Shown here piece after piece: positions 9,661 through 42,942 of a stretch of DNA of 64,000 bases. A program made the position numbers and the translations under genes. The stretch comes from Narcine bancroftii. Lineage: Eukaryota. The stretch is from the NCBI RefSeq assembly GCF_036971445.1, contig NC_091480.1, positions 11,594,001 through 11,658,000 on the forward strand, written 5' to 3'. Position 1 is the first letter of the stretch, and every line of letters begins with the position of its first letter. Under the pieces are notes generated by a model, which was given only the letters and a program-made list of their open reading frames with translations, was not told where the DNA came from and made no database searches.

Positions 9661-9966
9661 TTTATTTGTAGCCACAATGGGTTGGCAATTAATTATATTT
9701 ATCTATTTCTATTGTGAATGCAGAAGGTACAATCTGTGGTGTAGGTTATAATAGTGCATTGAATTAATTGGACAGTATCCCCATTCCTTGATACATTGAA
9801 CACTGAGTCAGACAGGAGAGCCAGTGGGATGGCATCATTGCCAATTAACACCCAATATTGTCATACCTTTGTTCCCATATATCAATACACCGGAATTCTC
9901 TTCCCGATAGTGTTGTGGGAGAAGTATCATTACAAAGCTGAAATAAAGAGGCCCATACTGCCACTG

Positions 9967-10206
9967 CCAATGAGGGGAAAGACCCAGACTTCCAATGAGG
10001 GGAAAGGCCCAGACTTCCAATGAGGGGAAAGGCCCAGACTTCCAATGAGGGGAAAGGCCCAGACTTCCAATGAGGGGAAAAGCCCAGACTGCCAATGGGG
10101 GGGAAAGGCCCAGACTTCCAATGAGGGGAAAGGCCCAGACTTCCAATGAGGGGAAAGACCCAGACTTCCAATGAGGGGAAAGGGCCTGACTTCCAATGAG
10201 GGGAAA
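9967..10206. repeat. 25-bp minisatellite (ccaatgaggggaaaggcccagactt) x ~9.5
   Basis: Direct reading; period 25. Confidence 0.95.
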
Positions 10207-21849: not shown

Positions 21850-22235
21850 CTAGGTGCACCCCCAGTGCACTCCCCTTCCCTCAGCTTTCCCCTTCTCCCT
21901 GCGCACAACCCCCTCCCTGTGTACCCCCTCCTCCCCATTCACAAACCTCTCCCTGCACACCCCCCCTTCCCTGCACACCCCCCTTCCCTGCACACCCCCC
22001 CTTTCCCTGTATACCCCCCTCTCCCTGCACACCCCCCCTCTCCCTGCACACTCCCCCTCCCTGCACACTCCCCCCCTCCCTGCACCCCCCTTGCACACCT
22101 CCCTCTACTCCCCCCTCCCTGCACCCCCCTTGCACACCTCCCTCTACTCCCCCCTCCCTGCACACACCCCCCTTGCACACCTCCCTCCACCCTCCCTCTC
22201 CCTCCACTCCCTCCCTGCACACACTCCCTCCCCAA
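21850..22235. repeat. C-rich low-complexity minisatellite (ccctgcacaccccc variants)
   Basis: Direct reading. Confidence 0.9.
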
Positions 22236-22570
22236 CGAAGCCGCGCGCCAAGCCACCCAGCCCCTCACACTCACCCTGGCTCCCCGGTTACGTCACCGCC
22301 TGACGTCCCGCCTCCTGCCTCTCCCAGTCATCAACGAATCACCGCCGAGCGCGGCCACGGTGACGTCACGGCGGGCGGCGGTTTGAAATCCCAGCGTCGC
22401 CCTCACCCAGAGTGAAGGGAGGGGGTCGGTTCCCAGCGTTTCCGCCCTGCGGCTGAAGTGCATGATGAACACGAAGCAACTGGCCGAGTACGTGCGGCGT
22501 CCAGCGCGCCGGGGCCGCGTGGTCAAGCCCGGCAATGCGCTGCTGGGCCTCAACTCCCGGACGAAGGGCC
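22230..22570. promoter_or_regulatory. CpG-island bidirectional promoter ERI2/REXO5 with CRE/ATF sites and a CHR element
   Basis: CpG-dense; TTACGTCA 22288-22295, TGACGT 22301, TGACGTCA 22361-22368; GGCGG next to TTTGAA (22382-22387); minus-strand donor AGG|GTGAGT at 22275. Confidence 0.75.
22462..22487 (+). CDS. ERI2: ERI2 coding exon 1 (MMNTKQLAE)
   Basis: ATG in CpG island; donor GA|gtacgt; resembles human MATKRLAR. Confidence 0.85.
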
Positions 22571-25500
22571 GGGCCGGGCCGGGCCAGGCCAGACCAGACC
22601 AGACCAGACCGGGACGGGCCGGGCAGGGCCGGGGTGGGGCGGGCCAGACCAGACCAGGACGGGCTGGGCCGGACCAGGACAGGACAGGACAGGACAGGAC
22701 GGGCCGGGCCGGGGTGGGCCTGACCAGACCAGCACGGGCTGGGCTGGGCCGGGGTGGGGCGGGCCAGACCAGACCAGGACGGGCTGGGCTGGGCTGGGCC
22801 GGGCCGGGCCGGGCCAGACCAGACCAGACCATGCCATGCCATGCCAGGCTGGGCTGGGATGCAGGTGTCTGCAACTAGGACAGAAGTGCCATCAGATCAG
22901 TGAAAGCATATTGCTGGAGACTCTCAGCAGCTCCAATGGTGCAGCTCAGGTGCAACCAAGGTTTTGGGCAGGAGTCCAACACTTTCCCCTGCCAAAGGCC
23001 GAAGCGTTGCTTGGGTTTGGACCCTCAAGGTTGAAACATTGGCCATCATGTATCTCCCTCTACCATTTGCGTTTTTGCTTCAACCACGGTGTCTGCACAA
23101 CAAAACGGGTGCTTGGATCGGGAGCCGGACCCTCCATAATATGCTGGAATAGCTTCTTGATGAAGGGCCCAGGACCGAATTGTTGGTTTGCGACCTGCCT
23201 CCTCTCCCTGGAGATGCTGTGTGACCTGCTGAGCTTCTTCAGCACTTTCCGGTCCAGTGCGAGCCGGTTGACTCTCACTCAATGGGTCGATGAGCATCAG
23301 AAGTAAAACACAAAAGTCTGTGGGCACTGTGGTTGAAGTAAAAATTGCAGTGCCTGTGTGGTGCGCTGTTAGCTAGAATCAGACACACACACACACGCAC
23401 AAGGTAAAGACTGTACAACAGGCTTTAAACCACAAAGACTTCCACAGAGCCAGGCTGCCAGTGGGTGCAGCAACTCTGAGTGAGGCCGGTGCAGGCTTAG
23501 ATCCCAGAGGGTGATTGACACCCGACAGGGTGGGGCTTGATCCCTTCAGGCCGACTGATTGACAGCCGGCCAGGTGCTGTCCTGTCCCCTTACACTCCTG
23601 CAGGTACAGAGGTTGCCCCCTGCAGTAGGCCGGTGGTGTACCACCACAGCTTGAGAAACTCAGCAACTTGACGTAGCAAAGTACGTAACCAATGTTTCGG
23701 GCTTGAGCCCTTCATCAAGTTGGCCATTCTTGAAGAAAGGTTATTTTCTTTTCCCAACTGATGCTACTGAGTTCCTCGACCAGATTTATTTTTGCACAAA
23801 ACTGATGGTGATTATTCAGATTCAGGATTGTTTTTTTTTTAAAAAGTGGTCATTAGATTGCATTTGGGAAGGATTTTGCTGTCCTTAGCAAGGCTGTCTT
23901 TGTGTGATTGGAGCAGGTTAGCAGTGTTGGGTTTTGCAAGCCTCGCCATTCAAAAAAGGTTTCCTTGCCAGTGATGTTCTCATCCTGTGGATAGATTGGA
24001 TTTGTGGAGATGTGACCCTGGCTCCTCACTTTTGGAAGTGTGCAAGGGTAATAGTGTTAGATTGTTACTATTTATTAAATATGGAATATATTTGATTTAA
24101 TGATTTATGCTTTGTGCTGAGTGAGGGACACACGCAGAAGGGAAAGAAATATCTGTTGCCTTCCGTGGCTGCTGCCTGACCCACTGAGTTTCCCCAACAT
24201 CATCTGTGTTGCTAAACAAATATCTTGATCTTCATTAACGTCCATTAACTTTCATTTCGTTTCCTGGGCTGCTGAAGTTTTGCATATTCTTCCACAGGTG
24301 GGGTAGAAGCTCGACGGGATGGTTAGATGACTAGTTAGTCATTTATGATGAGTTCTGGACCTGAGGTATCCTATGTCGATCAAAAGTGTGTAGCTACTGG
24401 AAATCAGAAATTAAGGAAATCAGAAATAAAGGTGAAAATACTCAGTTGATCAGGTAGCATATGTGAAAAAAGAAGCAAGGTCCATGTTTTGGGTTGAAGG
24501 CACTTTGTTACAGGGTTCTCAATGCCATTGGTTTGAGTTGTTGCAGCTAATGTTATTGAATCAAGCTTTGAGAGTATTGTTGCATTGTTTCCTCTGTCTG
24601 CCTCATATTGCTGTCATCTTGTGCTGTGACAGTACTTTTAGTTGGGCTTCAGTTTCAACACTGGTGACCAGCATGTGAACAAGATGTCCTCCCCATTAAA
24701 GCCTCTAGGGGATGTTGGCCTCGGAAATGTCAACAAGCCCTTTTCACACTGACTTACCAGTAAATTGGCTATTTGACGAACTGGTTAAAGAAGCTGTTTT
24801 TCTGTTCACACTGGACTACTGTTAATCAGTTCTCTGTGCCCTATCACACTCACCACCAGGCATCTCATGGCAGAGGGGTGCCTATCCTCCACTAATTGGT
24901 TCCAGGAGAACCCCCCACCATCCCTTTCACATTGGACTGACCAGTACACAGGTGTCAAATCACCCTAGGGGTGATTCACCCTACCCAGGCAGTCCAACCC
25001 TGGGGTGATCCATGAAAGTTACATTGGCACTTTAACCTGTACATTGGCAGTTACTTACTGAGATAAAGTGCCAGTGTGAATGGGACTAATTGGCTTATTT
25101 GTCCTGCCAATGGATTTGGAGGGTTTTGCAGAAATATTCTGGGTGATATCTTTTTAGTGCTTTGAGCTGCCTATTGTTGGTTATCCATGTCTTAAACAAG
25201 GATCCCTGCTGCCTGGTCGACCATCAATTTTGTGGAATTTTTGATCATTAAATAATCTTGCTTGAACAAAAAGGCTGTGCTGCTACATTGAAAATGTGCT
25301 TTGAGTGGTGGCTGCTGATGTATGGGAGTTGGTACATGTTTTTCAGTGTCAGGTAGGTTCTGGACTTGTGTTGTAGATCTGGAGCTGGTTGGTACTTTTT
25401 GTATCATGAATATTAGATGCAAGACCCAAACTGTTGTGCCTCAGTGACTTGGATAATGAATGTTATATACAAGGCGCATTCTCTCGCTACAGTGACTTGG

Positions 25501-28500
25501 GGGTTGAATATGAATATCTTAGCATCATTTGTGTACTGTGAATCGACAACTGGAGTTGAGCAATGTTCCTGCCTCTTTCAGATTTTGAAAGAGGTAAACA
25601 CAAAATTTTGAAGTTGAATTTACTATGGAACCAAAGATGAACAAAAATACAAAGTACATTGTACATTTTTTGTTTTGATATTTCCTTGGAGGAAAAAATA
25701 CTAAATGGTAGTATGAGAAATCTAGAAATTGCCTTTGTGTGCTTAAAAAGCTGTCCTGTACTTTGAGAACCATATGCCTTATCTAGTGTCACTATCAGCT
25801 CAAAGCGTTATATGTTTTCAATTGTTTACAATTTTATTTCCTTCTGAGACAGTCTTCCGGTATTGATTAATTGCCCAATTTTGTGTTTAACTAGTCCTGT
25901 GTCAATCCTTGGAACTGTGGAAGAGAAAGTTCTGTACCAGATGCTCCGTTCTCTTCATGTTCATTGTTTACTTTCTTTTGTCAAAGTGATTCCATATCTC
26001 TCTAAGAAATGTTCATATGGCAGGGAATGGCAATGGCATCATATTCTATAATCCCACCTGGAGTAAAATTATGATTGCATTAACATTTAAATGTGTAAAA
26101 ACCTGAGTTATAAATTTGTTGAAATTAATCTACCACTTTGGCGCTTTTTTTCTCTCTTTCCCCCCAATTTTATTTGTACAAGTACGTAATCTTTTACTAT
26201 ATTTTCTCTAGGCAACTTGGCTTAATAAGAAAACAGTCATCAACGTCTGTTGAAGGCAACAAAAATCCGAAGTCTAGTAAGTGTGGAAATGTGTATTCTG
26301 TTGTAGAAAGTCCAGATAAAGCATAATCCTAAATTGAAGTTAAACAGGAAAGTCTGCAGATGCTGTGATTGTAGTTTAACATATAAAAGTGCTGGAGAAA
26401 CTCACCAGGTCACACAGTGTTCTTTATGGCAAAGATACATCACCAGCACTCACCCTGAGTCTGAAATGTTGCTAAAGTGGTTAAAGTTAATGTACCTTTT
26501 CCTTTAAGAATGCACATTGACCTGCTGAGTTTCTCAACATTTTTATCCAAAATTGAAGACCAGTTAGTATATGATGGGAAAAACTAGATCGAGATGAGCA
26601 GATGTGATTTAATTGTCTTTTGAATTTGTGTATTATATTCTTAATTTTGGCAATAAAAGTTCATGAGTGTATTTATAAATAGAAATGGCCTGCAGAAACA
26701 TGGTGCTTTCTGTTCTCCCCCACCTGCATTGTGTGCTGATGACAATTTTGTAAGAATGATGTGTACATAAATAATATAATTGAGGGCAAGGGAATTTAAA
26801 ATAGTGGAATTGATGATGTATGTGTTTTAGAATTTTTTTGTTCTATATGTATTGTTCTCTATATGTAGTCATAATCACAGAACAGGTCCTTTTGGTCCAA
26901 CTTGTCCATGAATTTGAATTTTGAATTTGATCATATAGATTGTGCTAGCAAGATGGAGACAAAACTTGTGCCAATGTCAGTTATTTGAAAGTTCTTTTAA
27001 TATAAAATTATTATTTTGACTTTTTTTGCCAATTGGAAGTATCTATGCAAACTACTTAAAGGAACTGCCATTGGTGAAAGCTGTTCCATTTTATAAACTA
27101 ATATTGCAGATATATAACTGATCCCTGAATACTGGGCAAATCAGATAGTAGATTACACACACTAATCTGGAATTATTTGCTCTTTGCAGATCAGTATTTT
27201 TCATACCTAATTATCATTGATTTTGAGTCCACCTGTTGGAAAAATGGCAGGTCTCATTATCGTCCAGAAATAAGTGAGTATATATCCAAACAGACACCCA
27301 TTCTCTTGTCATGGGGCTTTGCACGTTGGGGAGAATTCTTTAGAGTTTCTAAATTCTTAAATTTTTCAATGCAGAAAATTGCAGTGATTTTAATTTCTCC
27401 AGTGTCGATGGCTATGCCTTTAGATGTTTCTTAATCTTTCTCTGACCAAGTTTGGCTACCTGTCCTTTGAAGCTTCATATTAAAATGTGATTAATTGTGT
27501 CAGTTTTGTGCTAACTAAATGTATCTGATTTTGATGAGGCTTGCTTAAATTTGGAGCAAAATATTTACTTCCATTCTTTATGCAATCTAGTTGAATTTCC
27601 TGCAGTATTGCTCAACACTTCCAGTGGAGAGATTGAAGTTGAATTTCACCAATATGTTCAGCCTCAGGAACATCCAATCCTATCGGAGTTTTGCATGGAA
27701 CTAACTGGCATTAAGCAGGTATTGTGTTCAATTCTCATCTTTTCTCTCCTGCCCTCCTAACCACGTCCCCTCGTGGCCACTTGGTTGTTGGTCTGTGCTC
27801 CTGCCCCTTCTTATCTCCTCTCCCCACCTTTATATTCATGCACCTGCCTGGTTTTTACTCAGGCCTTGACTGAGGGCTCAGGGCCGAAATGTTGGTGATG
27901 CATCTTTGGCTGCAATGGATGCTGCAGGACCTGCTGAGTTTCTCCAGTTTGTGTATTAACTTTTTTGTGCAATACTTGGTTATGTTATCTGAGATGCATA
28001 GAACGATTTTAAAAGTGGTGTCTGGCCCAATAAAACTTGGTGTTTCTTCAGTGTGGGCCATGAACTTTAGTAGCTTGGGTCAGCAAAGAGGTCATTTATG
28101 GGAATTTGAATTTAAAAAAAACCTAATCAGTTCATTATTTTGGTGGCTTGTATTTGGACTGACTGGTTGGCTGAATGGTTTGAGAAATTGCATCATTGCC
28201 CGGTAAGAGTCAATTGGAATATTAAATTCTTATTCAGAGATATAGCATGGTAATAGGCCCTTCCGGCCCACTCTGCCGAAATACATTTCTGTGATCAATT
28301 AACCTCCTAACCCTATACATCTTTAAAGGTGGGAGGAAACTGAGCACCCAGAGGAAACTCATGTGGTCATGGGAAAGCATAGAAACTCCTTGCAGTTGGT
28401 AGCAGATTCGAAGCTGGGTTTCTGGCGCTTTTGTAGCATTGAGCTAACTGCAACAGTTACCGTGTCACCACTTTAGCATAGGAGAAGGCCACTCCGATAT

Positions 28501-31500
28501 AAAACCTACGACTCAAGGACCTCGCTGCCACGTCCCAGCTTGCTTGGCCACGGCACACGAACCATGGGTGTAAAGGGTGGGGCCAATACTGTGCACACTG
28601 CACTCCACCTAAAAGCTCCTTTGCGCAGGCCCGAGGACATGTCCACGTCCTCCCCCTCCACTTTAGCAGAATCACAGAAAGGTTACACCAGTGGTTCTCA
28701 ACCTTTTTCTTTCAACTTGCATACTACTTTAAGTAATCCCTCTGCCATAGGTGCTCTGTGTAAGGGTTTGCTTAAGGTGGTATGTGGGTGGAAAGAAAGA
28801 GTTTGAAAACCACTGTTTTAGTTGCACTTAATGGACTCATGTGCACAGTTTCATAACTCCAAAGGAAATGGGCCAGTGACAATTTTTATCAGGCTAAATA
28901 TTTCGGTAACAATTGGGTCTAGAGCAGTGGTTCTCAACCTTCCCACTCACATTCCACCTTAAGGAATCCCTTACTAATCACAGAGTACCTATGGCATAGG
29001 GAATACTTAAAGTGGGATGTGGAAGAAGGTTTAAACTTGATGAAATATCTCCCTCTAGTGTGCATTTGTGGAATTGAATAGAGCCTACATAGGAATTAGC
29101 AAGTTCACTATTATCACCTTTCAACATTTTCAGTGGCAGGTTGAAGCTGGAATTCCTCTTGCAATATGTCTTTCACAATTTTCCCGCTGGATTTGGAAAC
29201 TGCAGCAGGAGAAGAACATTGTTTTTGTGGAGGAGCGATCTCAACACTGCCATCCTGGCTTGAAACCCTGCGCTTTTGTTACTTGGTCAGGTACTCTCTG
29301 CTTTTGTTACTTGGTCAGGTACTCTCTGCTTTTGTTACTTGGTCAGGTACTCTCTGTTTTGTTACTTGGTCAGGTACTCTCTGCTTTTGTTACTTGGTCA
29401 GGTACTCTCTGCTTTTGTTACTTGGTCAGGTACTCTCTGCTTTTGTTACTTGGTCAGGTACTCTCTGCTTTTGTTACTTGGTCAGGTACTCTCTGCTTTT
29501 GTTACTTGGTCAGGTACTCTCTGCTTTTGTTACTTGGTCAGGTACTCTCTGCTTTTGTTACTTGGTCAGGTACTCTCTGCTTTGTTACTTGGTCTGGTAC
29601 TCTCTGCTTTTGTTGGTGAGTTTAAGCCATTTAGCTAATTGAACAAAGAAAAGCTGCACTGAAATTTTAGTCAACTAAATTATAAACACCAAACATAGTT
29701 TGGTTGATTGGAATAAAAATAGAAAATTCTGAAGATATCCATCAGGTCAGGGAGCATCTGTGGAGAGAGAGAAAAACATAGATAATGTTTCGGGTTAATG
29801 AGCCTATACTAGATTTTCAGTATTTGGCATTTTTATTTAATTTTAGCTGCTTTGGTTATAGTTTAAAAACTAACTTCTTGACCATTAACCTACTATAGGT
29901 ACAATAGTTTGCATTCAGCTTTGATTCATTTGGAGAATTTTTGCTCTGTAGAAGGTGTAATTTCAAGCTTCAACCCAAAGACTGGCATCTAAGCTGACAA
30001 TACAGTGAGGTATCTTGTTTTCAAATTGTATTAAATGAAGGGTTGATTTGTTTTCCGAGGTCATAAACAATTCCATGACACCATTTCAAAGAAATTATCC
30101 TGTTGAATGGCTGGATCCCTGTAGCTTTCCACCACTTTTTTTAAAAAATAGCTTGTTCCTCCTTTTTGCCCATCAGTTTTCACTACCTGTCTGCATTACC
30201 CTCACAATCTTTTGCACCTCTATGTGAGACCATATCATTTTGTGACATCTTGAGATCTTAAGTGATTCAACAAGAATACATTTTTTTTATTTTCCCCTCT
30301 TTTATTATTTTTATGTTTTGGTCTAGGAAGAGCACAGAAGTGTGAAAAATTCTTTGCATCTTTTTCCAGTAAGGTTCTGTGAAAATCAAAATATTGTCGA
30401 AGCTGGAAATCAAAAATGCAGCTATCTGCTCTTTGATCTGAAATGCTAACACTAAGTCTTTTCACAGCTCCTTCTTGACCTGCTGAGTGTTTCCAATATT
30501 TTCTTTTATTTAACACTAATGTTGTGGTTTAATTTTAGACATGAAATGATTTCTTCCATGCTGGTGTTTTTTTTGCGTCATAAGATTTGTTGAGTTGGCA
30601 ATACTTCTGCAGGGATAGCCAGCAGGTTGTGAACTGGACTTGTGACTACAGTGTATGTTATTCTCTCACCAGATTGGGATCTGGGAGTGTGCCTGCACTA
30701 TGAATGTAAAAGGAAACAACTCCTAAAACCAAATATTTTGAACAGTTGGATTGATCTCCGAGCAACTTACAAGGTACGCCATCAAGACGGGAAATTGTTT
30801 TAGCCATTGTTGGAATTTCCAGCAGAAATGTATAGGGTAGTCAGCATCCACACAGAGAAGGCTGGTTACTGATTGGTTATAACCTCTGAATTGAAGGCTG
30901 ATTGATAATCTGGATTTTCGATGAAAGTTGGGAAAGAAAATTGGGATAAAATTAGAAGAATGGTTAAACAGCTACTTCAGCATTTGCAAGTAGGTAAATT
31001 GGGTTTAATGACCTACAAACATTATCACTGACAATTAAAAGATGACTTTAATGATCACTGGTAAAATAACTGGAGCAACATTAAAAGAATACAAGAAGAG
31101 CAGTGTGAAATATTTCTGAGAGGTTCCATAAACAAAAAGGAAAAACCTGTAAAGGGGAAAGGAAATTGCAAATTTTACTGATCTGAACTTGCGACCAAAA
31201 TATACCAGAGAAACTCACCAGGAGGGAAAGAAGGCCAAAACACAGCCTTCAGTTTCAATCAGTATTGTTTTGCTGATTGACTTCAACTCAAAATAACAAA
31301 ACACTTCCTTTTCTAGAACACAGGTGGATCTTGTTACATTTATATTGGGAGAAATGGCTGAATTCTGAGGTCATCAAGTCAATGTTCTTATCATACCTTA
31401 ATTTTATGTGTGTTTATGTTAAAACTTATTGAGAAGTGTGAAAAATCAAAAATTGAAGCTGTTGCAACAGGAAAGATGAGGGAAATGTGGAAGTGAATCT

Positions 31501-34500
31501 CCGAAGGAGTCTTGGCTTTTTATAGTTCTCTCCATTTATGCTTTTTTAATTGTCTTGCACAATTACATGTGGTACTTGTAATCCCTGAAACATCTACAAT
31601 GAGCTTGGTGCATTTTAGAAATAATTTTCAGTCAAAGGGTGTCTAATGTGCAGTATTTGAGGGCCAACCCTAGCTGATGGGTGTGCATTTATTTTCACTG
31701 CCATTTGTACAGATTTTAAATGTTTAGACATACAGCATGGTAACAGGCCCACGAGTCTGTGCTGTCCAATTATACCCAATTGACCTATTGCCACTAGAAA
31801 GTTTTGAATGTTGGGAGGAAACCCACCAGACATGGGAAGAACATACAAACTTCTTGCTGGCAGCACAGAATTTGAACCTCTGTCCTGATCGTTGGTGCTG
31901 TAACAGCGTTACGCTAACCGTGTGGCCCTGTTTGTTCAAATTGTATCTTCATAAATAAATTATGATGAGTTGTGCATTTGTTTTTTTTGTTTGCACCTTC
32001 AGTGGTATCGAGTTTTCTGTGGGGAATTATTCTAAATGACTTGTGTTTGTGTAACAGACATTCTATAACCGAAAGCCAAAAGGTTTAAATGGAGCTTTGC
32101 AAGATCTGGGCATTGTCTTTTCAGGACGTGAACACTCTGGTAGGTGATGCACATTGCATTGCTGTAAGCTTTTACTAGTTGTGTTTAAGTGGAACAGAGT
32201 GACTGGATTTGGTGTTCTGTTCCTGAGTATGTTGGGCTACTATCCTAACTTGATTGACCTACCTTGGTAATATCAGACCTTATCTTTTCCAATAAAAATA
32301 ATTCAATCTAACTTTGTTTTCCCACCCTCAACAGCTTTTTGAGGACAAGTATTCCAAATGTACAGTACATTTGCTGTGAAGAAGAGCTTCATGAATGGCT
32401 TAGATATAATTTTAAAGTCGTACCCTTTCATTCTGAAACACTAAAGACTGAAGACACTGTGATTGTAGTAAAAACACAGAAATGCTGGAGGAACTCAGCA
32501 GGTCTTGCAGCATTCATAGGAGGTAAAGATGCAGTATATAGCTTACATTTCAGGCCTGAGCCCTTTTAAGAAGCAAGTTAAAAAGGAGACAGGCATACCA
32601 TGAAGAAGGCCTCAGGCCCGAAATGTTGGTTTAATATCTTTAACTCCTGTGGATGCTGTGAGACCTGCTGAGGCTGGGGTGGGCAACCTTTTAATTTTTT
32701 AATTTAAACATACAGCACAGTAACAGGCCATTTCAGCCTACATGTATGTACTGGGGGGGAGTATGTTAATTGGCCAGCACAGACTCATGGGCTGAAATGG
32801 CCTGTTACAGTGATGTATGTATATTTTAAAAATTAAATTTTATGTTAAAACTTATTGAGAAGTGTGAAAAATCCAAGTGTGAAAAATACCAATTTTTTTT
32901 TTTGGTACCCCTTCCATTCAATTCACTGCACCAGTAGAATTGTGCCTCTTTTGCTATCCTAACCAAATTCTCTGTCATCTTAAAAACTGTACCTCCCACT
33001 TCATCGCTGAATGAAAATTCAAACTTCTGCTGTTTTTTAAAAAAAAAAACAACACTTCAAGGTCGAGCAGTATCGGAGGGGAAAAGAATTGTTGGTGTTT
33101 CTGGTCAAGCACTTGCCATCAGGAGTGGAGAGGAAATGTAATTTTGTGAGATCAACAGCCTCCAGATGTATGGTAAAGCAGCAGACAGTAGTCGGGTTTT
33201 CCAGGAAAATAAAATGTATAAATAAATGTAAAATATATTGGAACAAGCAGGACACATTTTCATCCAATACGTTTTAATTGCCTGAAATTCAGTAACAAAT
33301 ACATGTTGTATATTTCTGTAAACCTAGCCAAAGTATTTTCCTGTAAAGGTTACCACTTGGCTTCATAAAATGAGTAATTCTTCTTGACATGTATTTAAGA
33401 AAGTCTTAATTGATGTAAAGTAGAATAGAATGTTTTGAGTTCTCATTTTCTGGTAATCGTTTGAAAATGTGACTGTTCAAGGCTTAGATGATGCCCGGAA
33501 CACTGCTAATCTTGCCTGGCAAATGATGAGTGATGGCTGTACCATGCAAGTCACTAAATCATTGGACAGGGTGAGTGACAATTGGTGAGTGCTGCACTTT
33601 CATCTGACAGATCTTTTGTGATAACATCTGAGGATGTTGCATGAGATTCTATCAATGTTCAGAATCAGAGAATCTCAGGATAATTCCCACTTTTGTGGTA
33701 TTTTTTCCAGGTTGCTCCCGTGAGAAATCAAAACACAGGCTTATCGACTGTAAACTCTCTTCCAAGTGGCAAAACCTCACAAGTTGGTCTCTCTTCTAAA
33801 GACCCTGACAATGGGACAAGAGCAAGCTTAATTTCTGAAAATGGTTATCATAGAAGACAGATCTCTGAAAACAACCAGATGAACACTCGCCGTGGGCACG
33901 AAATCACAGTTGAACAACAGAAACCAGTTTTGCCAACTTTGACTAAATCTGCAAGGCAACACTTGGGGACCATTGATTGTAGAAAAGGCTGTGATGCAAA
34001 TGGTCATTATCAGAGTATTCTATCTCCCAGGACTCTAATCAATGGGCTTTGTACTTCCACTGATCATGCTAAAGGACAGAATCCGCAAGTTTATGTGAAC
34101 AACAGTATTAAAAATCTAATTTCACTTGGTGTTGAAGAATCTAAACCCAACGAGAGTGTAGGCAACCTGTTGCTTGTGTCCACCACTATTGACTCGGTCA
34201 CTAGTCCCTCTGATTTGGATGTTAGTTGTTCAGAGTCTGAAGTGCCCTGGGAATACTGGGATGATTCTGCCATCTTACCGCTATCAGGTAATGATTGCGC
34301 AGAAGACTGCGGAGAACAATGGCAAAACTGTAAAGAATCAAGTTTCGTTGAAGTGGAGTACACGCCACTTCGAGATTCATCTCCAGACAGAAAGGATGAC
34401 AAATTGACAGAAGCCAAAAAGCATCAGGAAGTGGTGCATAGGAGCTTTCAAACACTATGTGATACAGCTGAAGTTGGGAAGCAAGCAAAAGATTGGCCTA

Positions 34501-35084
34501 TCTTAAAAGTATCTCGGGTGGAAGTTCCCAATGCCCAGTCCAGTCTTTTCAATGTTGGCACTAAATCTTTGCTGCCTTCTGTTCTGTCCTTCCAACCAAA
34601 TAACTATTTGCATGTTGGTTTTAAAAGAAAAGAAAGCCATTCAAGTCCCTTTAAAAAACCTATTTCCAAGAAGCAATCATTCACTATATTTTCAGACGAA
34701 AACTCATCATGTAATTGTTCTGTATCCTCAGTTGATAAGGCAGATTCGAGAGTTGTTCTTTCAACCAAGTGTTCCTACTTACCACAGTGGAAATTGAATG
34801 GTGACAAGATTACTCCTCCACTGTGTGACTGTGGTCTTAGAACTAAGAGGCTTACTGTGTCTAAACCAGGGCCAAATCAAGGGAAAGTCTTCTATTCCTG
34901 TGTGATGGGGAAAAGAAAAGCTGACAGTACCAAGGGTTGTGGATACTTCAAGTGGGAGTGGGCATTGAAGAAGGAGAAAGCCACTTCAGCCCCCTCTGCT
35001 ATTAATTTTGGTACAGGCTCATCTGGAGTCTTTCCTCCTTCCCAAAGGAAACATTTAGGCCTCCGATTTTCTTTCCGGAATTAA
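22462..35084 (+). CDS. ERI2: ERI1 exoribonuclease family member 2 (DEDDh 3'-5' exonuclease + GRF zinc finger); 9 coding exons: 22462-22487, 26212-26276, 27190-27273, 27591-27718, 29134-29290, 30673-30773, 32058-32139, 33482-33570, 33711-35084; 2106 nt, 701 aa
   Basis: Spliced translation MMNTKQLAEQLGLIRKQ..YLIIIDFESTCW..EFPAVLLNTSSGEI..CAFVTWSDWDLGVCL..GREHSGLDDARNTA..PPLCDCG..GPNQGKVFYSC matches vertebrate ERI2. All introns are GT-AG, phases are consistent and there are no stops. Confidence 0.96.
22567..22858. repeat. Compound pentamer repeat (GGGCC/GGGCT/AGACC/GGACA/CCATG)
   Basis: Direct reading; start of ERI2 intron 1. Confidence 0.9.
23357..23648 (-). mobile_element. Solo LTR (292 bp) in ERI2 intron 1
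   Basis: TGTGGTG..CACCACA termini; 5-bp TSD gcctg/gcttg; interrupts an older repeat. Confidence 0.65.
26212..26276 (+). CDS. ERI2: ERI2 coding exon 2 (QLGLIRKQSSTSVEGNKNPKS)
   Basis: ttttctctag acceptor, gtaagt donor; QLGLIR motif. Confidence 0.92.
27190..27273 (+). CDS. ERI2: ERI2 coding exon 3 (ExoI motif IIDFESTCW)
   Basis: tttgcag / gtgagt; DxE catalytic motif. Confidence 0.95.
27591..27718 (+). CDS. ERI2: ERI2 coding exon 4 (EFPAVLLNT..ELTGIKQ)
   Basis: ctag / gtattg; near-identical to ERI2 family sequence. Confidence 0.95.
28690..29030. mobile_element. hAT-like MITE, tandem units
   Basis: cagtggttctcaacct at 28690 and 28925; aaaaccactg at ~28815. Confidence 0.55.
29134..29290 (+). 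CDS. ERI2: ERI2 coding exon 5 (WQVEAGIPL..CAFVTWS)
   Basis: ttttcag acceptor; first of ~12 tandem donor copies CAG|gtactc. Confidence 0.9.
29272..29614. repeat. 28-bp minisatellite (gcttttgttacttggtcaggtactctct) x 12 spanning the ERI2 exon 5 donor
   Basis: Direct reading; two units are 27 bp. Confidence 0.97.
30673..30773 (+). CDS. ERI2: ERI2 coding exon 6 (DWDLGVCL..WIDLRATYK)
   Basis: ctcaccag / gtacgc; ExoII aspartate. Confidence 0.95.
32058..32139 (+). CDS. ERI2: ERI2 coding exon 7 (TFYNRKPKGLNGAL..GREHS)
   Basis: taacag / gtaggt; catalytic His. Confidence 0.95.
33482..33570 (+). CDS. ERI2: ERI2 coding exon 8 (GLDDARNTANLAWQMMSDGC..)
   Basis: ttcaag / gtgagt; ExoIII aspartate. Confidence 0.95.
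33711..35084 (+). CDS. ERI2: ERI2 terminal coding exon (long linker + GRF zinc finger)
   Basis: ttttccag acceptor; 457-codon open frame with CDCG..GPNQGKVFYSC..CGYFKW; TAA stop. Confidence 0.95.
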   Translation, partial: VAPVRNQNTGLSTVNSLPSGKTSQVGLSSKDPDNGTRASLISENGYHRRQISENNQMNTRRGHEITVEQQKPVLPTLTKSARQHLGTIDCRKGCDANGHYQSILSPRTLINGLCTSTDHAKGQNPQVYVNNSIKNLISLGVEESKPNESVGNLLLVSTTIDSVTSPSDLDVSCSESEVPWEYWDDSAILPLSGNDCAEDCGEQWQNCKESSFVEVEYTPLRDSSPDRKDDKLTEAKKHQEVVHRSFQTLCDTAEVGKQAKDWPILKVSRVEVPNAQSSLFNVGTKSLLPSVLSFQPNNYLHVGFKRKESHSSPFKKPISKKQSFTIFSDENSSCNCSVSSVDKADSRVVLSTKCSYLPQWKLNGDKITPPLCDCGLRTKRLTVSKPGPNQGKVFYSCVMGKRKADSTKGCGYFKWEWALKKEKATSAPSAINFGTGSSGVFPPSQRKHLGLRFSFRN

Positions 35085-35499
35085 CAATGTAATTTTATTT
35101 CTGCATTGATTTCTATTTATAAAGCAGCAAATTATTTTGGACTGAAGAAAGGTTGATGTAGAGCAGTGCAATGATTTTAAAAATTCACTCAAACTATCTT
35201 GATTAGACTTTTTCTCCTCTGAATGTATATAAATTTTAAACAATCTTTCATGGGAACCTGTCAAAGATTTCCATCCAGTTTCCTTTGGACCTTTTTTCTG
35301 AAGCCATGAGAGTGTTTAGATTTATTTCATGGCCATTAAATGTGCCATCCACATGTCAAAATGAGGAAGTGCTAATTAATTTGGAGTAGAAATTGCAATT
35401 GTCCACATTCTGGTTTGTGTGTGTATATCTTCTATATCATCTCACTTTCATTTCCTACCACTATCTTTTTTAGTAATTTTCACTATCTTTGTACTCTGT

Positions 35500-35550
35500 G
35501 ACTCTTAATAAAACTAAACTTTCAAGAATATAATTTTTTAATAAAAACAG
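35500..35550 (+). terminator. Candidate ERI2 polyadenylation signals (two AATAAA)
   Basis: AATAAA at ~35507 and ~35540, about 420-460 nt after the stop; actual use not verifiable. Confidence 0.4.
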
Positions 35551-37392
35551 CATACAAAGAAACATCAGTGTAAACAATTTGAAATTCTCATGCATGTCGT
35601 TTTTCTGCTGTGTAATGTTCCAATGGTGGAAAATGATTGGCAACTAAAAATCATGAGCAAGTTCAGTTGTGGTGAATCTAAATTTGTACTTTTGATTATC
35701 ACTGGCTTATTAAATCTAACGGTAACCAAGTTCTTGATTATTGTTATCCAAAATGCCAACTTTTTTTTTGAGGGAAGTAAAATAATGTTCAATAGAATGT
35801 CTCATTCCATGATTCTCATTTTGTCTGCTTTTAAATGTTTTAATATTTCAATGTCATTATTATACTCTTATTTGTGCATTCCTTAAAGTAACTGCATTGC
35901 AAAAATTGTCAAGTTATTTGCAACACTGGAACTTGTTCAAGTGGTTTATAATAAATTACTATACAAGTAGTTATAGAAGAAGCATTTGATTATACAGATG
36001 CCTTTTTATGCAAGCCTTTAGCTGAATCAGTCTCACAAATTAAGCCTGCTGGAGCTCTGCTCATATTAGGAGTACAGGGTTTGCTGAATTTTTTTTAAAA
36101 AAAAAGGTAGTTTACTGCATAATGTATCGATTCCTGAAGCACAGATGGGCATGTAGCAGTCTTGAGTTCATGCCATTTATTCATTTAGTGGTGTTGCTTG
36201 TATGTCTGTTGACAGCCTTTAAAAGGAAAGCTCTCTTTGTATGCCAGAAAGAAAACTATCTCCTATCACAAAAGGAGAAATATGGGCAGCCAAAATTTGC
36301 ACTGGCAAAACTTTCTGTGGAGAGATGTTTGATAAATTTGGATTATCTGCAGATGTCTGTTCAGGTTAAGTGGTGCATCTTTTATTTCTGCATAACCACA
36401 TTTTCTTGTAGGAAATGGGAGCCAGTTGTGTGGTCTGGAGAAGCAGGCCTCAGAAGGGCAACATGCTTTTGATACCTAGGTCAAGCACACCTGTATAATT
36501 TCTCTTCAATTGATACCAAAAGTTTACTAATTCATGCATCAAATGCACACAGAAGCTTGTGGAAGGTGTACCTGTGGAAATTGGCCTCCTTCGCCACTTC
36601 GGAACCCACACAACTGGTTAAACATATCATCCTTTTTTCCAAGAAAACAATCAGTGATTGCTCACAGAATACTAAATGTACAGAATTAATTTTCACAATT
36701 TGCAATAAGAGAATTGGAATATGGACTGTTTGCATAACTAGTTATAGTACTTTTGGATATTGGTACATTTTTCCTTTGAGTACATTATGTAAATGCATTT
36801 GCAGTGTAAGATGAAAGCATTTGGGAAAACCTGTTTGCTTTGACTCTTCCAGCCACATCACATCTTTGGTGTACATTGTGTGACTGATGTCTGTCTTACA
36901 TGGGAATGGAATTCAGTCTTTTTTAATCTCTCCTGTGAGACAAGAATCCATTTGCAACATTTCACAACTTATCAGAGTTGGACTGAAATTTAACTTTTTA
37001 AATATTACAAAAAAAGTATATGAATCTCTTTCAGTTAGATTTAACAAAGCCAATGTGTCATTTCCTAGATTGTACTGATTACAACATGAGCTGTTCAATA
37101 TTTTGAACTTGAATAATGGGACATACTTAAAGACTTTTATCTACTTCATACAGAGTATGAGAATGTCACTTTCGACACAGAAGGTAAAAGCAGTAGCTGC
37201 ATCATTCTTCAGCGAGATGCCACAGCAGGTAAAAGGACACCAAAAACTATAACTCTTTCTTTTTGAATAAAGCTGTTGCACTTTATAAGACTGGGCAAAA
37301 ACTCTGCTAAAACCTACAAGATGGTGTTCAAATTATTGGTTGAATACAAAAGCAAAAATTGATTCCATTCTATGATGTAAAAAGAAAATGAT

Positions 37393-37601: not shown

Positions 37602-37800
37602 ACTTGACGTGAAATTAGAATGAAAATGGTCCTTGTTTCAGTTAACTTCTGCCCCTCTTTCCATTTTTTCTTTACCTTCCCTTATTGACTCTTCTCTCCA
37701 ACTTGACATGAAATTAGAATGAAAATGGTCCTTGTTTCAGTTAACTTCCGCCCCTCTTTCCATTTTTTCTTTACCTTCCCTTATTGACTCTTCTCTCCAA
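37602..37800. repeat. 99-bp tandem duplication
   Basis: acttgac.tgaaattagaatg..ctcttctctcca twice, 2 mismatches seen. Confidence 0.9.
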
Positions 37801-38745
37801 CTCTCCCTCTCAAACTGCGTGCCACTGTCTCCAGCCACAAGTGGTTGGAAGAATCCCTTATCCCAGCAGAATCACTTGTCCTGGGACCATCATGGAGAAT
37901 GGCCTCCCGGGCAGCAGAGGGGACCTCAGGGTCAGTGACATTCATTTCCCTTCCCTCCCTCCACAGCACACGAACTCCAAATCCTCTCATCAGCCTACTA
38001 CCATACGCACACCAGACTCCTCAGTGTGTGTAGGCCTAGGGGAGGATTCGCGGTTGGGAGCTCTAGTGACTGGAGAGACGGGAACTTGCCAGTGAGTGTT
38101 CCACCGGCCCGGGAAGACTCCATAGGAATTAATGGCAGCGTTGGGGACATGTTGGGGATTGACTTTAGCCAGCATTTTTTTTTGGTGAGAATTAAACATT
38201 TTAATGGTTAAAAAGCCTTCCCTTGTTGCTTAAGCATGTCATTTGCTGTTGCGATTGTGCTGTTTTTTTTTAAAAAATGACCAGTTCTCCAAAAAAAATC
38301 ATTTATCTAACATAGGCATGGTCCCGACCATTTCACAATAAAGTTAAATATTTGAAATAAAGCAAATTCCAATAATTTTTTTCCATTCAATTACATAATT
38401 TCAGCCCTTGCATATCTAGATGAAAGAATCTGAATTAAATTTCAAGAGAGCCCCAAATATTTTCTCATGTGTAAATGCTTCTGTTGCAAAGATAACATTA
38501 CAAAACTGCCTCTTCCATCCACATCTGATGGAGATGGATCCATGATGTGCATACCATGAGTGTTTTGGGTTTTTAATACACAAATATGGCAGTATCTAAA
38601 AACTAATTTAGAATAAAAGTGCATAATATTACGACAACTTGTGGTCATTCACTACTCCATCTTGATTACTATACTTGAGAACTATGGATCAGCTATTGGT
38701 TAAACTGCCATTCCGAATAAGAAAGCTAAGAGGCAGAATATAGAC

Positions 38746-42022: not shown

Positions 42023-42400
42023 ATTGTACATTGTACAATATGACAATAAAACCCATTTTACAGTGTGTGTACATTGTACAATATGACAATAAAACCCATT
42101 TTACAGCGTGTGTACATTGTACAATATGACAATAAAACCCATTTTACAGCGTGTGTACATTGTACAATATGACAATAAAACCCATTTTACAGCGTGTGTA
42201 CATTGTACAATATGACAATAAACCCCATTTTACAGCGTGTGTACATTGTACAATATGACAATAAACCCCATTTTACAGCGTGTGTACATTGTACAATATG
42301 ACATTAAACCCCATTTTACAGCGTGTGTACATTGTACAATATGACAATAAACCCCATTTTACAGCGTGTGTACATTGTACAATATGACAATAAACCCCAT
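42023..42400. repeat. 43-bp minisatellite x ~9
   Basis: attgtacaatatgacaataaaacccattttacagcgtgtgtac; period 43. Confidence 0.95.
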
Positions 42401-42942
42401 TATCATTCAGTTAACAAAATTCCTTCAATTCGTCTTTCTGATAAAAATGTAATGACTACAAAACTAACTTCCAATAATTGTCTGATAATTACTGTTCTAA
42501 ATGTTTTGCTATTTGATTTTATATTTTTATTCTTGCTATATTAACTAATGGAGAACATCATATTTACTATCCAGTTCAAAATAGCTCCAAAATAACTATT
42601 CCATGGAATAATAATTTGAGTTACCCAAATAATGAATTGTCAACTGTACAAGCAATTTCCAGTTATTAGTTTCTTCTTACCCTTTCTACATATATTTTGT
42701 ATCCAACTAGACATCTGACTAGACCAAGCAAGGATGGAAATTATCATCTTTGGTTAATGTGATTCATTTTGTTTGGAACTTGGTTGTTTGATTTTTGTTG
42801 TTGTGGGGAAAAAATATTTTAGAATATTTTGTAAAATCAAATGCATAAGGATTCTCTTGTATTGTAAAGTACAATACAACTGTCAAACCTCAAATACACA
42901 ACAGTGGAACTGATTATATAGGGTAATATTGGATAACTGTAC

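What the first reader, a model, noticed from the sequence alone, without database searches (positions are those of the whole stretch)
29272..29621. Minisatellite that multiplies the ERI2 exon-5 splice donor inside the nuclease domain
Seen: the last 19 nt of exon 5 plus the first 9 nt of the intron form a 28-bp unit repeated 12 times. This gives 11 identical CAG|gtactc donors (29290, 29318, 29346, 29373, 29401, 29429, 29457, 29485, 29513, 29541, 29569), a variant CTG|gtac at 29596, and a better-consensus TTG|GTGAGT at 29615. The coding frame stays open through the array. Donors at 29401, 29485, 29569 and 29596 are in frame and would insert 37, 65, 93 or 102 hydrophobic residues just before the ExoII DWD motif. 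All others, including 29615, frameshift. The 9-bp microhomology gcttttgtt on both sides of the original junction explains the origin by slippage. Inference: copy number could act as a heritable dial on the fraction of functional ERI2 mRNA through donor competition and NMD.
Basis: partly seen in the sequence, partly recalled or inferred. Interest (0 to 1): 0.75.

Follow-up and report, generated by a model that had tools for sequence, protein, structure and literature searches.

The report
Repeated splice donor in ray ERI2
A 28-base piece spanning the end of ERI2 exon 5 and the start of its intron is repeated 12 times in an electric ray, but the spliced RNA assembled so far uses only the first splice signal, so the extra copies are likely silent, as in a repeat type already known from human genes and lancelets.

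Summary
The array is real as described: 12 units of 28 bp at 29272-29614, giving 11 CAG|GTACTC donors, one CTG variant and a TTG|GTGAGT site; the frame arithmetic is right. The 'dial' reading is not supported. In 2 of 2 RNA-type runs laid (one study), the spliced contig joins the first donor (29290) to exon 6; no contig showed a later CAG donor. Both RefSeq isoforms use the first donor, and 0 of 100 protein hits carry array-coded sequence. A relative about 93% alike has one copy, with the short match already nearly present (8 of 9) and no GT at the 29615 position, which fits slippage. This is a new member of a known kind: human F7 intron 7, CBS, ABCA7 and amphioxus 'mirage' repeats. In F7 only the most upstream donor is used. 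The scan has noted the same kind on other DNA several times. Open: length polymorphism, minor leak hidden by NMD or by assembly, and use of the 29596 and 29615 sites, which were only indirectly tested.

The parts
29134..29290 (+). ERI2 exon 5 (157 nt), ends after codon Ser153 + 1 base, inside the exonuclease domain
   Evidence: Exact exon chain for P0076; Pfam RNase_T 38-225; spliced contigs in X5 and X6
29272..29614 (+). Minisatellite, 12 units of 28 bp (19 exon + 9 intron bases; two units are 27 bp) plus a 9-base partial copy
   Evidence: unit contig and exit contig in X5
29288..29296 (+). Authentic donor CAG|GTACTC, the one used
   Evidence: Loose ends at 29290 read as exon 6 in X5 (depth 287.1) and X6 (depth 15); RefSeq X1 and X2
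29316..29575 (+). Ten further identical CAG|GTACTC pseudo-donors (29318 to 29569)
   Evidence: Sequence; no contig with exon 6 letters behind 29318 in 2 RNA-type runs
29594..29602 (+). Variant pseudo-donor CTG|GTACTC, weakest U1 pairing (-4.1 kcal/mol)
   Evidence: the T at 29595 is unresolved in X5
29613..29621 (+). Cryptic TTG|GTGAGT site, stronger U1 pairing (-9.2 against -7.1 kcal/mol); absent in the relative; read through unspliced in X5
30673..30773 (+). ERI2 exon 6, starts in Asp154 of the SDWD motif
22462..35084 (+). ERI2 coding span, nine exons, intact 701-aa product

Best explanation
This is a minisatellite that copies the ERI2 exon 5/intron 5 boundary 12 times, likely born by slippage at a 9-base match, and its extra donors are likely silent because the assembled mRNA splices at the first one. 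Shown: the array, its presence in a second sample, the single-copy state in a relative, and first-donor splicing in two RNA-type runs and two RefSeq isoforms. Inferred: a first duplication between the exon's GCTTTTGTT and the near-identical intronic word 28 bases on, then expansion. Inferred from the F7 experiments: the most upstream functional donor wins by position (scanning or exon definition; exon 5 is 157 nt at the first donor, 185-482 nt at the others), so the array leaves with intron 5 and copy number matters little. It persists as a tolerated by-product in a genome with other young minisatellites.
For:: X5 contig (1684 nt, depth 287.1) and X6 contig (2947 nt, depth 15) run exon 4 - exon 5 - 29290 - exon 6 without a break; unspliced exit contig depth 10.2, 3.4% of the sum. 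Unit depth 53.2 x 28 = 1490 word counts, against 2570 expected from the unspliced RNA alone, leaving no excess for later donors; ceilings if all of it were spliced RNA: 23% (second donor) or 7% (first in-frame donor); 0 of 75 and 0 of 25 hits cover more than 43% of the exon-plus-array translation; the residues across the junction (C119-L133 of P0001 apart from one position) are invariant in 17 of 17 ERI2 proteins, with no insertion. X10 single copy. PMC1557585: in F7 only the most upstream of identical donors is used, even against TGG/gtgagt (consensus value 91). PMC3087553: mirages do not disturb regular splicing. Three other near-perfect tandem repeats lie in this window.
Against: Contigs drop rare variants and their depth is a poor measure, as the tool states; both RNA-type runs come from one study and 2 of 4 were laid. 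NMD would deplete 8 of the 12 alternative forms. The laid stretch held only two units, so the 29596 and 29615 sites were seen only indirectly. The 29615 site pairs better with U1 than the used donor. In CBS, the 6-16 gene (intro of PMC1557585) and ABCA7 (PMC5954066) the next one or two copies are used to some extent. One single-copy relative does not by itself fix the direction of change. RefSeq models lean on protein homology as well as RNA.
Confidence: 0.76

Rival explanations
1. Small leak: the second (and perhaps third) donor is used in a few percent of transcripts, the frameshifted products are cleared by NMD, and the effect on ERI2 level is minor, as in CBS and ABCA7.
For: The used donor is only moderately strong (-7.1 kcal/mol, fourth of eight ERI2 donors from the weak end is -7.5; range -3.2 to -10.9). 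Donors 29318 and 29346 give stops 241 and 218 nt before the last junction. Retention of one unit is reported for ABCA7 (PMC5954066 passages) and use of two pseudo-sites for CBS (intro of PMC1557585). Contigs cannot show rare forms.
Against: No loose end at 29318 in 2 RNA-type runs; no spare unit depth in X5; X6 holds no unit contig at all. A leak to the nearest copy need not depend on copy number.
Confidence: 0.17
2. One reading: donors compete broadly, and unit number sets the share of functional ERI2 mRNA, with most wrong forms hidden by NMD.
For: Eleven identical donors and one stronger site exist; 8 of 12 alternatives would be NMD targets; X5 unit depth is 5.2 times the intron contig's where the window predicts 9, a weak hint at another length.
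Against: Under broad competition four in-frame forms would escape NMD and be abundant; ceiling in X5 is 7% for the shortest and none is in protein records. F7 minigenes show no competition (PMC1557585 sections 6, 9). Length polymorphism is not shown.
Confidence: 0.04
3. Different origin (my own first idea): TTG|GTGAGT at 29615 is the remnant of the ancestral donor, and CAG|GTACTC was created by duplicating the exon end plus GT.
For: Removing nine bases from an exon end followed by GTGAGT would give the observed last partial unit; 29615 is the better consensus.
Against: Organism C aligns through 16 intron bases of the GTACTC type to 29306 and has no GT at the position matching 29616. Up to 3 differences near the ends of that alignment are not listed by the tool.
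Confidence: 0.03
4. The array is an assembly artefact.
Against: X5, from another sample, holds all 28 cyclic 31-mers and an exit contig matching the window's last two units in length; X9 (organism B) holds a 58-base unit contig at depth 3.3.
Confidence: 0.01

Closest known systems
Human F7 intron 7 minisatellite (37 bp, 5-9 copies); Borensztajn et al. 2006, PMC1557585 (read: abstract, introduction, sections 6, 9 and 12)
   Same: First unit spans the exon-intron boundary; identical pseudo-donors follow; only the most upstream donor is seen used; a GTGAGT-type stronger downstream site did not compete in their minigenes.
   Different: Here 19 of 28 bases are exonic (4 of 37 in F7), spacing is 28 nt, there are 12 copies, the host is a cartilaginous fish, and a natural stronger site closes the array. 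Polymorphism is shown for F7, not here.
Human CBS intron 13 31-bp VNTR, c.1444_1467+7(16_21) (PMC2630376 passages; intro of PMC1557585; the primary papers by Yang 2000 and Lievers 2001 were not read)
   Same: Mostly exonic unit (24 exon + 7 intron bases by its name) repeated into the intron; closest in anatomy.
   Different: In CBS two pseudo-sites are also used and a link to enzyme activity is reported (title in a reference list); no such use was seen here.
Amphioxus 'mirage' minisatellites (Adh3, globins BflGb6 and BflGb9); PMC3087553 (passages)
   Same: [quoted passage not shown]
   Different: Mirages show length and somatic instability, untested here; globin units are about 150-160 bp.
Human ABCA7 intron 18 25-bp VNTR; PMC5954066 (passages)
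   Same: Each unit begins with a donor GT; retention of one unit frameshifts and would trigger NMD.
   Different: ABCA7 alleles range up to kilobases and length is tied to splicing changes; here neither retention nor length variation was shown.

Membership tests
Boundary-spanning minisatellites (F7 IVS7 type, 'mirages') | First unit spans an authentic exon-intron boundary | tested here: met
   Unit 29272-29299 straddles donor 29290, which is used in RNA and RefSeq
Boundary-spanning minisatellites (F7 IVS7 type, 'mirages') | Head-to-tail copies repeat the splice signal inside the intron | tested here: met
   12.3 copies, 98% matches, 11 identical donors
Boundary-spanning minisatellites (F7 IVS7 type, 'mirages') | Regular splicing at the authentic site is kept | tested here: met
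   2 of 2 RNA-type runs laid, contigs only, one study; 2 of 2 RefSeq isoforms
Boundary-spanning minisatellites (F7 IVS7 type, 'mirages') | Copy number varies among individuals (VNTR) | tested here: inconclusive
   31-mer contigs collapse the array; the depth ratio 5.2 against 9 expected is only a hint
Boundary-spanning minisatellites (F7 IVS7 type, 'mirages') | Pseudo-donors work when the first is inactivated | not testable with these tools
   Needs minigenes
Splicing-modulating VNTRs (CBS, ABCA7 type) | Downstream copies are used as donors in mRNA | tested here: inconclusive
   None seen in 2 runs or 100 protein hits, but contigs drop rare forms and NMD may hide them
Splicing-modulating VNTRs (CBS, ABCA7 type) | Splicing or expression changes with repeat length | not testable with these tools
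   No genotyped individuals with RNA
ERI2 (DEDDh exonuclease with GRF zinc finger) | RNase_T domain plus GRF zinc finger, orthology to named ERI2 | tested here: met
   Pfam PF00929 and PF06839; human ERI2 structure 7n8v, E 4.9e-112; exact match to RefSeq ERI2

The most novel reading that the evidence does not exclude
The ray array is a polymorphic, length-dependent splice leak: longer alleles divert a measurable share of ERI2 pre-mRNA to nearby copies or to the lineage-specific GTGAGT site, NMD clears the products, and ERI2 dose varies heritably. It would be a CBS/ABCA7-like expression dial in a cartilaginous fish with the pre-expansion state preserved in a relative.
Probability: 0.07. Interest if true: 0.45.

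Novelty: new member of a known kind. Interest (0 to 1): 0.17.

Why it matters
As it stands it is one more example that position beats strength in 5' splice-site choice, now in a cartilaginous fish: 11 identical donors and a stronger one, and the first is used. Its modest extra value is that a relative keeps the single-copy state with the short match, so the birth of the repeat can be read. If the dial were true it would add a non-human case of a repeat tuning gene dose through splicing, a mechanism already published for human genes.

Tried and rejected
No whole genome was held, so no genome-wide base rate of such arrays could be computed. No run is on record as RNA ('no RNA holder listed'); X5 and X6 are treated as cDNA because their contigs join exons 4, 5 and 6. 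My idea that GTGAGT was the ancestral donor was rejected. I first read the last unit in X5 as CAG, an allele differing from the window, because the tool lists no other letter there; the contig breakpoints fit the window's CTG better (0 cyclic 31-mers on the exit path with CTG, 4 with CAG), so I do not claim polymorphism. RNA structure does not explain donor choice: the region folds no better than shuffles (z -1.07, 15 of 100 as good) and all 13 donors have low, unordered accessibility. No Rfam match in 26000-36000. X9 holds only the unit contig without flank at depth 3.3: it may be a relative's locus or trace DNA, and is not used as evidence of age. Searches used wrong exon coordinates; their per-exon and per-donor protein lengths were discarded and redone (the shuffle, hydropathy, 31-mer count and the U1 values for 29290, 29318, 29596 and 29615 do not depend on them). 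A recalled human case (a UPF3A VNTR with a donor in each unit) was not found in two searches and is not relied on. PMC10078293 passages gave nothing specific. Searches for a published description of this locus (20 of 24 and 20 of 779 papers listed) showed none among those listed.

Full report
Observation. It has ten 28-mers, two 27-mers (29356, 29579) and a 9-base partial copy, with CAG|GTACTC at 11 places from 29290 to 29569, CTG|GTACTC at 29596 and TTG|GTGAGT at 29615. The unit has no stop codon in any + frame, but neither do 7441 of 20000 shuffled units, so the open frame carries no weight.

Gene. Exon 5 translated matches a RefSeq protein named ERI2 of Narcine bancroftii, an electric ray, at 100%. 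Its cluster has two members, isoforms X1 (701 aa) and X2 (673 aa). A chain of nine exons with AG/GT ends and donor 29290 translates exactly to X1. The junction falls between Ser153 and Asp154, inside the Pfam exonuclease domain (38-225), in a stretch that is nearly all invariant in 17 of 17 vertebrate ERI2 proteins aligned, none with an insertion. Asp156 aligns with the SWD aspartate of human ERI1; that this is the ExoII catalytic residue is recalled, not tested. The four in-frame donors would add 37, 65, 93 or 102 mostly hydrophobic residues there; the other eight give stops 218-271 nt before the last junction and would be predicted NMD targets.

Which donor is used. Eleven runs hold the region, none on record as RNA, four guessed to be RNA, all four from one study. 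I laid 4 of the 11 (X5, X6, X9, X10) on 29040-29327, which holds exon 5 and two units. X5 and X6 each give one long contig with exon 4 letters before exon 5 and exon 6 letters directly behind 29290 (depth 287.1 and 15). No contig has exon 6 letters behind 29318. X5 also has a 58-base contig of the repeat unit (depth 53.2) and a 743-base contig (depth 10.2) that leaves the array through the short last unit and reads on unspliced through the 29615 site into the intron. The unspliced form is 3.4% of the sum of the two depths. It carries 252 cyclic 31-mers per molecule in the window's layout, which predicts 2570 counts against 1490 seen, so nothing is left over for spliced RNA from later donors; if all unit depth were spliced RNA the ceilings would be 23% for the second donor and 7% for the first in-frame donor. 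These figures lean on contig depth, which the tool warns is a poor measure, and contigs drop rare forms. The 29596 and 29615 sites lay outside the laid stretch and were seen only through the unbroken exit contig. Two protein searches with the exon-plus-array translation found 75 and 25 hits, none covering more than 43% of the query (each scored the best 8000 candidates).

Origin. X10 (organism C) has one 707-base contig aligned from 29043 to 29306 with 16 other letters and 4 gap bases; it then continues with 30 letters that match window 29613-29642 at 22 of 30, the single best of 127,942 positions on both strands, the next best being 19. So this relative has one copy, a GTACTC-type donor (up to 3 differences near the alignment ends are unlisted), 8 of the 9 bases of the short match, and no GT at the 29616 position. 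At the other seven ERI2 donors the longest word shared by exon end and intron start is 4-6 bases, against 9 here. One relative does not prove the direction, though expansion is the simpler reading. X9 (organism B) holds only a 58-base unit contig at depth 3.3, which I cannot place.

Why the first donor. By U1 pairing the used donor scores -7.1 kcal/mol (ERI2 donors range from -3.2 to -10.9), 29596 -4.1 and 29615 -9.2 (the U1 motif is recalled). Strength therefore does not explain the choice, nor does folding (z -1.07). Position does, by analogy: in F7 minigenes only the most upstream functional donor was used, pseudo-sites with consensus value up to 91 (TGG/gtgagt) did not compete, and only perfect sites did (PMC1557585, sections 6, 9, 12). 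Exon 5 would grow from 157 to 185-482 nt at later donors. This step is inferred, not tested in the ray.

Comparison. The introduction of PMC1557585 lists boundary-spanning minisatellites in F7, LAMIN B2 and PDGF (first donor only) and in CBS and 6-16 (two further sites also used). PMC3087553 (passages) describes amphioxus 'mirages' that leave splicing undisturbed. PMC5954066 (passages) reports retention of one unit in ABCA7. PMC2630376 (passages) gives the CBS unit as 24 exon plus 7 intron bases, close to the 19 plus 9 here. No supplements were read. I found the F7 paper by my own search; the mirage lead came from the scan's earlier notes, which list seven similar arrays on other DNA, including a shark EMILIN1 case. 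Searches for this locus in print showed none among the papers listed. The window holds three other near-perfect tandem repeats with units of 25, 43 and 99 bases, so such expansions are common here.

Verdict. Real feature, correctly described, with its birth readable from a relative; a new member of a known kind, most likely silent (0.76). A small leak remains possible (0.17); a true dial is unlikely (0.04). Interest 0.17.

Noticed in passing
window 27190-27273: RefSeq isoform X2 (P0001) skips exon 3 in frame (84 nt, 28 aa), which removes the DFE motif at 41-43 (ExoI by recall); it would be a catalytically dead form. This is the annotated alternative splicing of the gene, not the array.
   Followed up: partly
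window 32139 and 33479-33487: The main X5 contig ends 183 bases behind 29290, exactly exon 6 plus exon 7 (101 + 82), which hints at a branch there. Exon 8 has two AG acceptors 6 nt apart; the second would drop Gly-Leu from HSGLDD.
   Followed up: no
window 29595: T in the window's last unit; the tool lists no difference from the CAG unit in X5, but contig breakpoints favour T. Unresolved.
   Followed up: partly
window 9963-10206, 42025-42401, 37602-37802: Other near-perfect tandem repeats: 25 bp x 9.7, 43 bp x 8.8, 99 bp x 2; not checked against exons.
   Followed up: no
window 22566-22827 and 21889-22232: G+C-rich pentamer repeat at the start of ERI2 intron 1 and a C-rich repeat upstream of the promoter region.
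   Followed up: no
window 29217 (run X10): Organism C lacks three bases of exon 5, in frame, in the variable part.
   Followed up: no
proteins P0078, P0079 (cluster of P0002): Many transcript-derived skate ERI2 records are a 251-aa form ending after exon 8 and a separate 451-aa C-terminal part, which suggests frequent retention of the short intron 8.
   Followed up: no
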